Origin: Trypanosoma brucei
Lineage: Eukaryota
DNA length: 64,000 nucleotides
Assembly (NCBI GenBank): GCA_000002445.1
Contig: CH464491.1
Coordinates: 2,560,001-2,624,000, forward strand
Direction: 5' to 3'
This document shows, piece by piece, positions 36,514-43,644 of the stretch (its first letter is position 1; every line of letters begins with the position of its first letter). The position numbers and the translations under genes were made by a program. Under the pieces are notes generated by a model. It was not told the DNA's origin. It saw nothing but the letters and a program-made list of their open reading frames with translations, and searched no databases.

Positions 36514-37399
36514 GCGTTATATGGCTCTATGTAACACGCATCTAAAGAGGAGAATACAAGTAAATAAGTTATTGAAAAATAAGGTGGAAAAAAGTTAAAT
36601 CATGTAAACTCAGTATCAGAACGAAGATTCGGTACACAAAAAAGGACAAAAAATTGTCATGTAACCTATCGGTAGTAAAAGAACAAATTTTCGAGCACAG
36701 TATCTTTTGCAGAGCCCCCCCCCACCATCCTCCTTCCCCAGGGGTTTTATGCAGCGACTGTTCGTTAAGCTTCTTCAACATCCCACATACTCAATGCTAC
36801 ATATTTAATCAATAAAGAAAACTTCGTCCTGCAAAAAAAAAAAACGAATTACCTTCCCCAATCCTTGGGTGCCCAGTCATCATGCAGTACAAATCCTGCC
36901 TTTTGTGTATAACACCCCAGAAAGACACAACAGGACGCTGGATTTAAAAAAAAAAGGAAGATGTTTGCCTTGGTACCATGAACTGCAGCTACAAACACGA
37001 AAGAAGAATAATCGGTGCAGCGGTCTCAACTTACGTAACAGCAACAAAGGGTGACACCCAGAAAAGAAAATATGGGGAAATGGATATCTTTTTCTTATCA
37101 AATATCCATAATAAGTACTTATATTACAAATTATATATCTGACTTGAAGCAACGTGTCCCAGCACTAAACCCCTCCCTGCAAAACGCAGGGCAATAATAA
37201 TTCACAATAAATGGGAGGGGTATGAAATATCCACGGGTTGATACTAACTCATAGGTAACGACGGTAACTATATTTATGTGAATCAAATGAAAACGATATA
37301 TTACAAGAGTATATATATTTAATTATTTATCAAGTGACATCTCTGGCGAGGAAAGTACTCCACAAGGCAAGACAACAGAACCCTATAAGCACGTAACTA

Positions 37400-38760
37400 C
37401 ACGTAGAAGCAACTAAATGAAAGTCCACTACCAGTAAAAAGCAGCTAAATTGGTCCCTGACGCGGCAGTATATACAACCGTCTGAACACCTACCCCACCA
37501 TCAAACACAAAGCACAGGCCAAAATGGATTATGCAAACACTACTACTTGGACGTACCACGTCAGCCTAATAAGACGGTAACTTACAAGAACAAACAAACG
37601 GCACCTCTATCATTAGGGAAGGGGGATTTAAAAAACGAAAGAAAAAACATTTCATCTACTTTTAAAAAGTTTCAACAAAAAAATATATAAAATGTCCAAC
37701 CATACGGAAAAGTTGAGATGTCCCAAGCCTTTCACATCCAGCATCGGCAACAAGTCTAACAGCAAGTAAAAAAAGTACCCGAACACCTCCCCTATTGGAC
37801 GACAACGACGACGGTGTACACCGCATGTCCGCAAGGGATGACAAAACAATTGAAAATAAAAAGCGAAACAAACTAAGCGAACCAGATGTCACCCCCGTAT
37901 AAACTTACGTGTATATGTATAGTGATAGTAAGAGTCGGGCGAGAACAACCACCTGCAAAACACTTGGAGCTTTTCTAAATTATTCTTATCCCTCTGCATC
38001 CCTAACTTTTAAAAATGTAGAATCGCGAATCTATAAGTGCAGGCCCAGTGGCATAATAATTAAGCCGTAAAACCGTTAGACCGGCCACTTGTAACGCGCA
38101 CGCGCCAGCTATACTAAAACCAAAGCAAACTCCTTTTGCAAGCTTCCGCCATCAGAGAGGTCCTGTAGAAGAGATAAACATCTAAAGGGGTGATAACCCA
38201 TGTCACCCTCAGGGTTCGTTAACGTGAGAACATCACGCAACGCCCCGCAGGTCAGTTGCGGTAGGGGTCTTGTAACGAACAAAAAACATTAAAAACACGA
38301 GGACAACCATCAGTGAAGAGTGCGAAATACGGAAGGGTACTGTTAACAAACATTAACCCCGCAGACGTGTCACGCATTGCCTTAATAGACACTTGATGCG
38401 CTACGCAAAGCTGCCGATGGGAGTTCACCGGAACTTTGAGACACCTGAACATAGCCGAGCTGCACAAAGGACAAAAAGGAATGCTCAAAAGCGTTTATTT
38501 GTGTTGACACAAAAGCCTATGCGGCAACCATCACGATAACTTTTTAAAAAAGATCAAGCAGTAATGCAACAGAAACGCCCAGTGGGCCCCACGCCCCACG
38601 CCCCACGCCCCACGCCCCACGCCGCTCCACGGGGAGGGGGTGACAGCCAACGCAACAGCACAAGCAGCACCGCTCAGCCACAGCCCCGCCGTGCGAACAC
38701 CGAAGCCGCGACAACACCCACCAGGGGGGCGGCTCGCTCGCACCGCCGGTATCTTGAGCC
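37400..38760 (-). promoter_or_regulatory. AC-rich tract on the plus strand (GT-rich on the minus sense strand), mirror counterpart upstream of the minus-strand unit
   Basis: The plus strand is A/C-dominated with few G/T runs. It ends in (CCCCACG)5 and 'ccaccagggggg'. Read in the minus-strand sense orientation this is GT/G-run-rich, symmetric with the 42.8-43.5 kb tract. Confidence 0.4.
38587..38621. repeat. (CCCCACG)5 perfect heptamer tandem repeat
   Basis: 'ccccacg' occurs 5 times back-to-back at 38587-38621, followed by 'ccgctccacggggaggggg'. The complement (CGTGGGG)5 has five G4 runs, so it is G-quadruplex-capable on the minus strand. Confidence 0.9.
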
Positions 38761-42779: not shown

Positions 42780-43520
42780 TAGGGCAGTCGCCGTGTTTTT
42801 TTTTTTCGGTCACCCCGCGCGTCAACCGGGTCCCGGCTGCGGTGGGGGTTATTGGCACTTGAGCGTTGGACAGATGTCACTTGCCGAGACCGTTTGGGTT
42901 GGTTGGGACGCTGCCTGCAGTTCTTTGCTGCTCTTCGTTGTTCCGGTTGCATTTCACTGCCTCGTTCGCGGTGCTACCTTTGCATCAAGGGGTAAGGCTT
43001 TTGGGAAGGAGGATGGTGTGCTCGCGCGAACCGTGGCCACGTTTTTACCGTTGGTTTCTGTAGTGAAGGTCGGACGGAAGGGGCGCTGGGGCCGGTAATG
43101 TAGTGAGGGCGCGGCGCGGTGTTAACCATTTTGTCTTTTCTGTGGATTCTGGTGCCACCGGCGTAAAAGTTCGTAGGTTTATCGCGCCGGTGGCACCTAT
43201 GTGTGAGTGGGCGGGGGACTTACTGGATCAGGTTCCCCTGCTCTGGCGAGGCTCAGAGGTATGGTGGTGGGGCTTCCTCCCTGAAGGGTGTGCGGCAGCG
43301 ATGGTCCACGTGCGGGAGGTTTCTCCGGGGATGGGTTGGTAGGCTGGTGGGAGAAAATGTGCAGCCCGGCGTTGGGGCGCCCCGAGGAAGGGCTCGGTGT
43401 TTGTGGGTCGTTCGCGTTGCTGGTGTTGCGTTTTCATTACTTTCTTCCAGTTTCCGTTCATAGCAATAGTCCCGAGTATTCCGTTTGTTGTCGTTCGTGC
43501 TTGGTGAGGTTGTTGTGAGC
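42780..43520 (+). promoter_or_regulatory. GT-rich, G-run-rich tract immediately upstream of the first plus-strand gene
   Basis: The plus strand is dominated by G and T with many GGG/GGGG runs ('ggtgggggttattgg', 'gggttggttggg', 'gggcgggggac', 'ggtggtggggc', 'gggttggtaggctggtggg'). It ends ~120 bp before the ATG at 43645. Published work on T. brucei reports GT-rich tracts at pol II transcription start regions that promote H2A.Z deposition. Confidence 0.5.
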
Positions 43521-43644
43521 ATCCGCTTTTTTGTCATTTACACCTCCTATTGTCCACCACTGTTTTCGGTCCTCACTTGTATTCACTTAATCGCTAGAGG
43601 AGACTTAATTATAATATATATTCTTTCCAGCCTTTCCTGAAGTT

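What the first reader, a model, noticed from the sequence alone, without database searches (positions are those of the whole stretch)
36514..43644. 7.1 kb divergent strand-switch region with mirror-symmetric strand composition
All 22 genes left of 36.5 kb are minus-strand and all 11 genes right of 43.6 kb are plus-strand. The gap has no credible ORF. Its composition is not random. At 37.4-38.8 kb the plus strand is AC-rich, which is GT/G-run-rich when read in the sense of the leftward unit. At 38.55-39.5 kb there is a GC island. At 40.06-41.1 kb there is a ~1 kb block that is strongly pyrimidine(CT)-rich on plus. At 42.8-43.5 kb the plus strand is GT/G-run-rich, directly abutting the first rightward gene. 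So each transcription unit is preceded, on its own sense strand, by a GT-rich tract. This matches the reported sequence signature of T. brucei pol II transcription start regions (GT-rich elements driving H2A.Z-nucleosome deposition). Such regions are also reported to lack base J in T. brucei. The size and internal structure make this the most regulatory-dense part of the window.
Basis: partly seen in the sequence, partly recalled or inferred. Interest (0 to 1): 0.65.

Follow-up and report, generated by a model that had tools for sequence, protein, structure and literature searches.

The report
Ordinary trypanosome bidirectional transcription start region
This 7.1 kb gene-free gap is the divergent strand-switch region between two gene arrays on Trypanosoma brucei chromosome 11, and its strand-biased composition fits the already described dispersed RNA polymerase II start regions of this parasite, so it is real but ordinary.

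Summary
The window is T. brucei brucei TREU927 chromosome 11. The gap lies between TbNH3/NUDIX (Tb927.11.9810, minus strand) and a Tectonic/DUF1619 gene (plus strand).

- There are 22 minus-strand genes on the left and 11 plus-strand genes on the right.
- No credible ORF, tRNA, Rfam RNA, retroelement relic or protein homologue lies in the gap.
- Sense-strand GT richness on both sides exceeds every other window of 700 nt or more in the 64 kb (z about 3-4).
- The CT block (z 4.6) and the GC island are true outliers.

The anatomy needs refining. Each unit has a T-rich leader next to its first ATG, then a roughly 1.1 kb G-rich GC island. The two islands have nearly identical sense composition. The leaders differ tenfold in length, and the CT block has no left counterpart. 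Published TSR 10-mers are enriched only on the left side. The base J statement is contradicted by the literature.

The strand switch is conserved across trypanosomatids and enlarged in Trypanosoma (19 kb in T. theileri). NUDIX sits on the opposite strand in Leptomonas.

Verdict: a known kind of element, with no direct initiation data mapped here. Low interest.

The parts
35773..36513 (-). First gene of the leftward polycistron: TbNH3 NUDIX hydrolase (Tb927.11.9810)
   Evidence: Pfam NUDIX match. Sequence identical to TREU927 XP_829045. The TbNH3 identifier and the 27.5 kDa size come from PMC6522730.
36514..38500 (-). AT-rich, T-rich leader of the leftward unit (sense strand T 0.372, G 0.224). 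It carries most of the published TSR 10-mer hits.
   Evidence: composition; 10-mers. An AT-rich, T-skewed 2-3 kb stretch also lies upstream of NUDIX in T. vivax, T. cruzi and T. theileri.
38501..39700 (-). Left G-rich GC island (sense strand G 0.324, T 0.253, C 0.242, A 0.180). Proposed 5' part of the leftward start region.
   Evidence: Highest GC in the window (0.687 over 300 nt at 38571-38870). Leftward G-runs of 4 or more peak here, at 10 and 9 per kb.
38586..38623 (-). Tandem repeat (GTGGGGC)x5.4 on the leftward sense strand. It holds the only canonical G-quadruplex motif in the gap.
   Evidence: Copy number differs from T. equiperdum. Its 10-mers TGGGGCGTGG and GGGCGTGGGG are in Wedel's list, with 6 counts each in region 1 of the coding strand; neither occurs in the other coding-strand regions, and the only non-coding-strand count is a single GGGCGTGGGG in region 5.
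39446..39964 (.). Compositional switch point: TA-skew minimum at 39446 and keto (GT-AC) skew minimum at 39964
40060..41100 (+). Pyrimidine-rich (CT) block on the plus strand, with no counterpart on the left. Function unknown; it lies in the spacer between the two islands.
   Evidence: 64.1% pyrimidine, z 4.6. No ORF support.
41100..42399 (.). Compositionally neutral spacer
   Evidence: No Pfam, homologue or Rfam match.
42239..42277 (.). Homopolymer element C12 A10 (TAAAA)n on the plus strand, which reads as a T-rich run plus G12 on the minus strand. It sits at the upstream edge of the right island.
   Evidence: Its length is unresolved in T. equiperdum, which has Ns here.
42400..43450 (+). Right G-rich GC island (sense strand G 0.336, T 0.266, C 0.231, A 0.167). 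Proposed 5' part of the rightward start region.
   Evidence: sense GT 0.663, z 3.9. Plus-strand G-runs peak at 43-44 kb.
43451..43644 (+). Short T-rich, polypyrimidine leader directly upstream of the Tectonic ATG. Likely the trans-splice acceptor region.
   Evidence: T 0.407. The splice site itself is inferred.
43645..45396 (+). First gene of the rightward polycistron: Tectonic/DUF1619 protein
   Evidence: Pfam DUF1619_N match. Sequence identical to TREU927 XP_829046.
36723..36738 (-). 16-mer GGGAAGGAGGATGGTG in sense orientation, 210 nt upstream of the NUDIX ATG. Its twin lies at 43003-43018 on the plus strand.
   Evidence: p about 0.002 by local dinucleotide shuffles. No homology beyond the word itself.
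43003..43018 (+). Second copy of the 16-mer GGGAAGGAGGATGGTG, in sense orientation, 627 nt upstream of the Tectonic ATG

Best explanation
The interval is the divergent strand-switch region between Tb927.11.9810 (NUDIX) and the Tectonic gene on T. brucei chromosome 11. It most likely holds two back-to-back dispersed RNA polymerase II transcription start regions.

**Shown by the sequence**
- Each unit has a T-rich leader next to its first gene, then a roughly 1.1 kb G-rich, GC-rich island on its own sense strand.
- The two islands face away from each other across a 2.7 kb spacer.

**Inferred from published work on other T. brucei TSRs**
- The strand-asymmetric G/T-rich DNA favours unstable H2A.Z/H2B.V nucleosomes and nucleosome depletion.
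- Pol II then initiates at many sites, mainly in the sense direction, at the outer (5') ends of the two H2A.Z domains. I place these ends at or near the two islands.
- The non-coding 5' transcript is discarded when the first gene is trans-spliced.
- The spacer, including the CT block, would be the weakly transcribed valley between the two start regions.
For: - Organism and locus are identified.
- The gene arrays diverge and the gap holds no gene of any detectable kind.
- The keto skew switches sign at 39964.
- Sense GT richness on both sides exceeds all other windows of 700 nt or more.
- The two GC islands have nearly identical sense composition, and no ~1 kb window outside the gap reaches their GC content.
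- Sense-strand G-runs peak in each island.
- Published coding-strand TSR 10-mers are enriched 9:0 on the leftward sense strand, p 0.004.
- Wedel 2017 reports initiation at the 5' end of H2A.Z domains, a 4:1 sense bias, and GT-rich 10-mers concentrated there.
- The strand switch lies at the same syntenic position in Leptomonas, T. theileri, T. melophagium, T. grayi, T. vivax and T. cruzi.
- G/T-skewed sense sequence, or a T-rich leader followed by a GC island, recurs upstream of the orthologous first genes.
Against: - No chromatin, Pol II or nascent-RNA data were mapped, so initiation here is inferred.
- The right tract shows no enrichment of the published 10-mers.
- By the count of uninterrupted GT words of 9 nt or more, neither tract stands far above ordinary intergenic regions.
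- The whole of each polycistron carries a weaker skew of the same sign (sense GT 0.537; 0.56 in intergenic regions). Part of the signal is therefore a general property of transcribed DNA.
- There is no sequence conservation with T. theileri, and divergence from T. equiperdum is at least as high as in other intergenic DNA. Nothing points to a constrained discrete element.
- The CT block is not explained by this model.
Confidence: 0.85

Rival explanations
1. The strand-biased tracts are passive by-products of transcription-coupled or replication-coupled mutation bias in unconstrained DNA. Initiation would be set by chromatin alone, and the sequence would not instruct anything.
For: The same keto skew runs through both polycistrons and is stronger in intergenic DNA than in coding DNA. 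There is no sequence conservation with T. theileri. Divergence from T. equiperdum is like that of neutral DNA. The right tract lacks the published 10-mers.
Against: The tracts are 3-4 sd beyond other non-coding DNA in the same polycistrons, including a 2.7 kb gene-free gap at 26.5-29.2 kb with sense GT of 0.579. The two islands converge on the same composition. Synthetic GT-rich DNA drives directional transcription and H2A.Z deposition in T. brucei (PMC5579346).
Confidence: 0.2
2. The region also, or mainly, serves as a DNA replication origin. The skew switch would then reflect a leading/lagging strand change. From my own knowledge, T. brucei origins and ORC1/CDC6 sites map to polycistron boundaries (Tiengwe et al. 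2012).
For: The skew sign change is sharp at 39.4-40.0 kb. Homopolymer tracts are present.
Against: Only a minority of strand-switch regions are active origins. Homopolymer density is not special: 0.84 per kb against 0.58 per kb outside. The skew follows transcription direction, as everywhere in trypanosomatid genomes. Nothing here is specific to an origin.
Confidence: 0.15
3. [quoted passage not shown] It would have been inactivated when ancestral chromosomes fused into T. brucei chromosome 11.
For: The orthologous T. cruzi Dm28c region is at least 10 kb, 54-66% GC, and carries a full-length L1Tc. Such features mark T. cruzi candidate centromeres (PMC13508446; PMC1868937). The region is large in every Trypanosoma species examined (19 kb in T. 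theileri, more than 10 kb in T. vivax) but only 1.06 kb in Leptomonas.
Against: No L1Tc/ingi relic is detectable in the T. brucei window. There are no AT-rich repeat arrays. The one T. cruzi centromere reported as syntenic to T. brucei chromosome 11 lies on contig 508707, whose gene .149 is the orthologue of Tb11.01.7730/LmjF32.2885. I judged this a different part of the chromosome from my own recollection of the old-to-new gene-ID mapping, which I did not verify. Kinetochore binding at the T. cruzi orthologue could not be checked because the supplement is not held.
Confidence: 0.07
4. The gap hides an unannotated gene: a protein-coding gene, pseudogene, snoRNA/tRNA cluster, or a trans-spliced long non-coding RNA downstream of the CT block.
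For: The CT block has the pyrimidine-rich look of trypanosome splice-acceptor regions. The T. b. gambiense accession numbers skip four entries between NUDIX and Tectonic.
Against: There is no Pfam, protein homologue, tblastn, tRNA or Rfam match. The TREU927 accessions are consecutive. A non-coding RNA cannot be excluded from sequence alone.
Confidence: 0.1

Closest known systems
T. brucei divergent Pol II transcription start regions (Siegel et al. 2009, own knowledge; Wedel et al. 2017, PMC5579346)
   Same: It sits between divergent polycistrons and has no genes. The size is in the published range: TSRs are roughly 5-10 kb, and the two tested constructs were 6.7 and 9.2 kb. G/T excess lies on each coding strand. 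Published 10-mers are enriched on the left side.
   Different: The right side lacks the published 10-mers and is G-rich by composition only. A 1 kb CT-rich block lies between the two halves. No chromatin or TSS data were mapped for this locus here.
Sequence-specific 75-bp Pol II promoter of T. brucei (Cordon-Obras et al. 2022, Cell Rep 38:110221)
   Same: Both concern orientation-dependent initiation within a strand-switch region. A 16-mer shared in sense orientation by both halves could in principle be an element of that type.
   Different: The paper is not held, so its motifs could not be compared. SPARC and RPB1 peaks elsewhere lack such motifs (PMC9566855).
Mammalian CpG-island bidirectional dispersed promoters
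   Same: Both have GC-rich islands of about 1 kb, G-skew on the non-template strand downstream of the start, many start sites, and no TATA-like core.
   Different: CpG observed/expected is about 1.0 across the whole window, so there is no island of spared CpG. Transcripts here are polycistronic and trans-spliced, and the two islands are 2.7 kb apart.
T. cruzi GC-rich strand-switch centromeres (Obado et al. 2005 and 2007; PMC13508446)
   Same: A strand-switch location with GC-rich islands. The T. cruzi orthologue of this region is GC-rich and carries L1Tc.
   Different: There is no retroelement relic in T. brucei. T. brucei centromeres carry AT-rich ~147 bp arrays, which are absent here.
Leishmania major chromosome 1 strand-switch region (Martinez-Calvillo et al. 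2003, own knowledge)
   Same: Both show bidirectional Pol II initiation between divergent polycistrons, near homopolymer C/G tracts.
   Different: The Leishmania region is under 1 kb. Here the gap is 7.1 kb with two separated islands. The Leptomonas orthologue is 1.06 kb.

Membership tests
T. brucei divergent Pol II transcription start region | Lies between two polycistrons transcribed away from each other | tested here: met
   22 minus-strand genes on the left and 11 plus-strand genes on the right
T. brucei divergent Pol II transcription start region | G/T excess on the coding strand of each unit, above background | tested here: met
   Sense GT of 0.631 and 0.663 against a background of 0.537 +/- 0.032. 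No other window of 700 nt or more reaches these values.
T. brucei divergent Pol II transcription start region | Enrichment of the published coding-strand 10-mers (Wedel Dataset EV1) | tested here: inconclusive
   Left: 9 clusters against 3.0 expected, p 0.004, 9:0 sense to antisense. Right: 3 against 2.9 expected, 3:3.
T. brucei divergent Pol II transcription start region | Twin domains of H2A.Z/H2B.V/H4K10ac, with Pol II and 5'-triphosphate RNA at their outer ends | not testable with these tools
   No read data are available. The supplements searched did not list this locus.
T. brucei divergent Pol II transcription start region | Orientation-dependent promoter activity of fragments | not testable with these tools
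   Requires an experiment
Sequence-specific 75-bp Pol II promoter (Cordon-Obras 2022) | Presence of the published promoter motifs | not tested
   Paper not held. Citing papers give no motif sequence.
T. brucei centromere | Array of AT-rich ~147 bp (or ~30 bp) tandem repeats with ingi/DIRE elements | tested here: not met
   Only four short tandem repeats, the longest 38 nt. No L1Tc/ingi similarity.
T. cruzi-type centromere | GC-rich strand-switch domain made mainly of degenerate L1Tc/VIPER/SIRE elements | tested here: not met
   GC islands are present, but there is no retroelement similarity in the T. brucei gap. The T. cruzi orthologue does carry L1Tc.
T. cruzi-type centromere | Kinetochore protein (KKT2/3) or topoisomerase-II accumulation | not testable with these tools
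   The table of peaks is not held
Convergent strand-switch / termination region | Polycistrons converge; tRNA genes are often present | tested here: not met
   Genes diverge. No tRNA.
Replication origin at a polycistron boundary | ORC1/CDC6 binding and an MFA-seq peak | not testable with these tools
   No data available. The skew switch is not specific to an origin.

The most novel reading that the evidence does not exclude
The unusually large strand-switch region at this syntenic position in the genus Trypanosoma is a decayed ancestral centromere. The sizes are 7.1 kb here, more than 10 kb in T. vivax and T. cruzi, and 19 kb in T. theileri, against 1.06 kb in Leptomonas. The T. cruzi orthologue, a GC-rich domain of at least 10 kb with a full-length L1Tc, would still bind kinetochore proteins. 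The two T. brucei GC islands would be what remains after chromosome fusion made it redundant, now serving only as the bidirectional start region.
Probability: 0.07. Interest if true: 0.6.

Novelty: already known. Interest (0 to 1): 0.2.

Why it matters
It matters little beyond confirmation. Divergent strand-switch regions of T. brucei are the textbook sites of Pol II initiation, and genome-wide chromatin maps already cover them.

Three results have modest value:
- A quantified single-locus anatomy. Two G-rich islands of nearly identical sense composition each sit outside a T-rich leader, with an unexplained CT-rich spacer between them. This gives concrete fragments for reporter dissection.
- The published 10-mer signature describes one half of the region but not the other. 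This supports the view that these promoters are heterogeneous.
- The comparative picture. The strand switch is ancient, it is enlarged in Trypanosoma, and the NUDIX gene sits in opposite polycistrons in Trypanosoma and Leptomonas. A gene next to a bidirectional start region can evidently change sides without loss.

Tried and rejected
- **tRNA and RNA families.** ARAGORN and Rfam found nothing. The single Rfam hit was an enterovirus element at E 0.88, which is noise.
- **Hidden protein genes.** A Pfam scan of the 10 longest gap ORFs, a tblastn of 123 six-frame fragments against T. theileri, and one large protein search with the 14 longest ORFs concatenated all found nothing.
- **Nucleotide similarity.** No nucleotide conservation with T. 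theileri and no dispersed repeat shared with the rest of the window.
- **Retroelement relic.** tblastn with both L1Tc ORFs from the T. cruzi orthologous region found nothing in the T. brucei window or in T. theileri L002.
- **Centromere lead.** Obado 2007 places the T. cruzi chromosome 1 centromere syntenic to T. brucei chromosome 11. Its probe genes lie on contig Tc00.1047053508707, whose gene .149 is the orthologue of Tb11.01.7730/LmjF32.2885. I judged this far from Tb927.11.9810 using my own recollection of the old-to-new ID offset, which was not verified, and rejected the lead for this locus.
- **16-mer inverted repeat.** There is no homology beyond the word itself. It is kept only as a note.
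- **GT-only words and homopolymers.** GT-only words of 9 nt or more, and homopolymers of 9 nt or more, are not clearly above ordinary intergenic levels.
- **Literature.** No paper mentions the flanking gene IDs in a transcription context. Supplements of PMC12227686 do not list them. Wedel's reporter TSRs are on chromosome 10. Cordon-Obras 2022 and Siegel 2009 are not held.
- **Tool limit.** Loci L003, L004 and L006-L008 never appeared in the scripting folder. They were analysed only with the built-in tools.
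Full report
**Identity of the window**

A 21 kb contig of T. equiperdum OVI aligns to window 36721-57925 at 99.67% identity. 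The Tectonic, NUDIX, WD40 and SRP-receptor proteins of the window are identical to T. brucei brucei TREU927 entries. The minus-strand gene ending at 36513 is TbNH3, Tb927.11.9810 (246 aa, 27.5 kDa; PMC6522730). The plus-strand gene starting at 43645 is a Tectonic/DUF1619 protein. In TREU927 the two proteins carry consecutive accession numbers, so nothing protein-coding is annotated between them.

**The observation**

- **Gene orientation.** The last gene is polyubiquitin on the plus strand.
- **Contents of the gap.**
  - There is no tRNA and no Rfam family.
  - The ORFs have no Pfam match and no translated similarity to the orthologous T. theileri region.
  - There is no L1Tc/ingi relic.
  - The 14 longest ORFs have no homologue among 5.8 billion proteins.
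- **Skew against background.**
  - Both polycistrons carry a G+T excess on the sense strand: mean 0.537 (sd 0.032) over 700-nt windows, and 0.56 in intergenic DNA.
  - The cumulative (GT-AC) curve has its global minimum at 39964.
  - Inside the gap, the best 700-nt sense values are 0.631 on the left (37281-37980) and 0.663 on the right (42841-43540). No window of 700 nt or more elsewhere reaches them.
- **CT block.** 40081-41080 is 64.1% pyrimidine. This is the strongest 1 kb purine/pyrimidine asymmetry in the window (z 4.6).
- **GC islands.** No ~1 kb window outside the gap reaches the GC content of 38571-39520 (58.4%) or 42451-43400 (57.3%).

**Refined anatomy**

Read outward from each first ATG on the sense strand, both units show the same order of elements.

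| Element | Left unit (sense = minus) | Right unit (sense = plus) |
|---|---|---|
| T-rich leader | 36514-38500, T 0.372 | 43451-43644, T 0.407 |
| G-rich GC island | 38501-39700: G 0.324, T 0.253, C 0.242, A 0.180 | 42400-43450: G 0.336, T 0.266, C 0.231, A 0.167 |

- Sense-strand G-runs of 4 or more peak in each island.
- The symmetry is real for element order and composition. The leaders, however, differ tenfold in length.
- The 2.7 kb between the islands holds the CT block, which has no left counterpart. It also holds a neutral stretch that ends in a C12 A10 (TAAAA)n element at 42239-42277.
That stretch is T-rich, and the G-runs lie at 38-40 kb.
- The left island contains a (GTGGGGC)x5.4 tandem repeat on the sense strand. 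It is the only canonical G4 motif in the gap, and its copy number differs in T. equiperdum.

**Test against the published signature**

Wedel et al. [quoted passage not shown] I mapped them on the window.

- **Left half.** There are 29 hits in 9 clusters on the sense strand and none on the antisense strand. From the body of the left polycistron, 3.0 clusters are expected (p 0.004).
- **Right half.** There are 3 sense clusters and 3 antisense clusters, with 2.9 sense clusters expected.
- **Tandem repeat.** Two listed 10-mers, TGGGGCGTGG and GGGCGTGGGG, are exactly those of the tandem repeat. Each has 6 counts in region 1 of the coding strand. Neither occurs in the other coding-strand regions, and the only non-coding-strand count is a single GGGCGTGGGG in region 5. 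This hints, but does not prove, that the repeat lay in the 5'-most fifth of a TSR in that study.
- **Other measures.** Counts of uninterrupted GT words and of homopolymers are not clearly above ordinary intergenic levels.

The signature is therefore sustained compositional skew. Only on the left is it built from the published words.

**Comparative evidence**

- **Synteny.**
  - It is conserved on both sides from Leptomonas to Trypanosoma. The 341-aa and EF-hand genes lie on one side, and the Tectonic, 197-aa and WD40 genes on the other.
  - In Leptomonas pyrrhocoris the strand switch is only 1.06 kb, and NUDIX lies on the Tectonic strand as the first gene of that polycistron.
  - In the four Trypanosoma species whose NUDIX locus was retrieved, NUDIX heads the opposite polycistron and the gap is large. 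It is 7.1 kb here and 19,037 bp in T. theileri. It exceeds 10 kb on the NUDIX side in T. vivax and T. cruzi.
- **NUDIX side.** In T. vivax, T. cruzi and T. theileri, an AT-rich, T-skewed 2-3 kb stretch precedes NUDIX, and a GC-rich island lies further out, as in T. brucei.
- **Tectonic side.**
  - T. grayi has a GC-rich, G- and T-skewed tract upstream of Tectonic.
  - T. theileri has a G-rich island followed by a T-rich leader.
  - T. melophagium shows only the T-rich leader.
- **Sequence conservation.** No sequence is conserved with T. theileri. Divergence from T. equiperdum in the gap is about 1 substitution per kb plus repeat-length changes. Coding DNA shows none over the same alignment.

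The position and the compositional layout are conserved, but no discrete sequence element is.

**Mechanism**

The best explanation is a pair of back-to-back dispersed Pol II start regions.

- **Shown here:** divergent arrays, absence of genes, sense-strand G/T skew beyond background, twin islands, and conservation of position.
- **Taken from the literature on other T. brucei loci:**
  - Initiation occurs within about 2 kb at the 5' end of roughly 10 kb H2A.Z domains.
  - Sense-to-antisense bias is 4:1.
  - GT-rich DNA is sufficient for directional transcription and H2A.Z deposition.
  - Narrow SPARC/RPB1 peaks occur just upstream of polycistrons, without a common motif.
- **My inference:** the two islands mark the 5' ends of the two start regions, and 39.7-42.4 kb is the valley between them.

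**Rival explanations**

- **Passive mutational skew.** It cannot be excluded from sequence alone, and it probably contributes.
- **Replication origin.** This role may coexist with the start regions.
- **Hidden non-coding RNA.** It remains possible.
- **Hidden protein gene.** It is effectively excluded.

**Base J**

Pol II initiation and termination regions are both described as containing J (abstract of PMC4150806). 'Very little' J was reported at one specific dSSR.

**Centromere lead**

- **What prompted it.**
  - The T. cruzi Dm28c orthologue of this region is GC-rich (54-66%) and carries a full-length L1Tc.
  - These are hallmarks of T. cruzi candidate centromeres.
  - Obado 2007 places one T. 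cruzi centromere syntenic to T. brucei chromosome 11.
- **Why it is rejected for that centromere.** It lies on contig 508707, whose gene .149 corresponds to Tb11.01.7730/LmjF32.2885. I judged this a different part of the chromosome from my own unverified recollection of the old-to-new ID mapping.
- **What T. brucei shows.** The gap has neither retroelement relics nor AT-rich arrays.
- **What remains open.** I could not check whether the T. cruzi orthologue binds kinetochore proteins. A relic-centromere reading stays as a low-probability novel case.

**Verdict**

The finding is real and correctly recognised in outline. It belongs to a known kind of element in a fully sequenced reference genome that genome-wide chromatin maps already cover. 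Interest is low.

Noticed in passing
window 35773-36513; L005 8790-9482: The NUDIX gene sits on opposite strands in the two clades. In Leptomonas pyrrhocoris it is the first gene of the Tectonic polycistron. In the Trypanosoma species examined it heads the opposite polycistron. Flanking synteny is conserved on both sides (43%, 75% and 72% identity for the three compared pairs). This amounts to a one-gene inversion across a bidirectional start region. Its polarity is unknown because no outgroup was available.
   Followed up: partly
L002 1-10000 and L008 1-10000 (T. theileri NBCO01000006.1, 836029-855065): The orthologous strand-switch region in T. theileri is 19,037 bp with only small ORFs. One 172-aa ORF (L008 1613-2131, minus strand) has two C2H2 zinc fingers (Pfam E 1e-6). 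They are spaced like the C-terminal pair of L1Tc (BLASTP E 0.08), so it may be a degenerate retroelement relic.
   Followed up: partly
L007 2238-6905 (T. cruzi Dm28c PRFA01000039.1): A full-length L1Tc retrotransposon (a 433-aa endonuclease ORF and a 1082-aa RT/RNase H/zinc-finger ORF) sits in the GC-rich orthologous strand-switch region. These features mark T. cruzi candidate centromeres. Kinetochore binding there could not be checked.
   Followed up: partly
window 36723-36738 (-) and 43003-43018 (+): The 16-mer GGGAAGGAGGATGGTG occurs exactly twice in the 64 kb, once upstream of each first gene and each time in that gene's sense orientation. Only 1 of 500 local dinucleotide shuffles gave a shared word this long. 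There is no homology beyond the word itself.
   Followed up: partly
window 38586-38623: The (GCCCCAC)n repeat has about three fewer copies in T. equiperdum. Its sense-strand 10-mers appear in Wedel's genome-wide list, each with 6 counts in region 1 of the TSR coding strand. Neither occurs in the other coding-strand regions, and the only non-coding-strand count is a single GGGCGTGGGG in region 5. Those list entries may derive largely from this one locus.
   Followed up: partly
window 49002-50858 and 52062-53279: These two long intergenic gaps lie where T. theileri, T. grayi and T. melophagium carry a ~465-aa gene and a PALP-domain gene. tblastn finds no trace of either in T. brucei, so both are apparent gene losses.
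   Followed up: partly
window 33346-33696: T. theileri and Leptomonas have a ~1000-aa protein kinase gene between the EF-hand gene and the ~1100-aa gene. In T. brucei only 351 nt separate these two genes, and no kinase was called at that position in T. vivax.
   Followed up: no
window 26466-29168: A 2.7 kb gene-free gap lies inside the leftward polycistron. It has moderate sense GT richness (0.579), a G4 motif on the sense strand (27520-27545) and many polypyrimidine runs. It could be long UTRs, a lost gene or an internal start region.
   Followed up: no
window 61515-63572: A polyubiquitin gene with 9 repeats carries a 708-aa antisense ORF (61416-63542). That ORF is an artefact of the repeat, not a gene.
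   Followed up: yes
window 42239-42277: A C12 A10 (TAAAA)n element lies just upstream of the right G-rich island. The T. equiperdum assembly has Ns here. On the minus strand it reads as a T-run plus G12, which are the most TSR-enriched published 10-mers, but that strand is antisense for the nearer (rightward) unit.
   Followed up: partly
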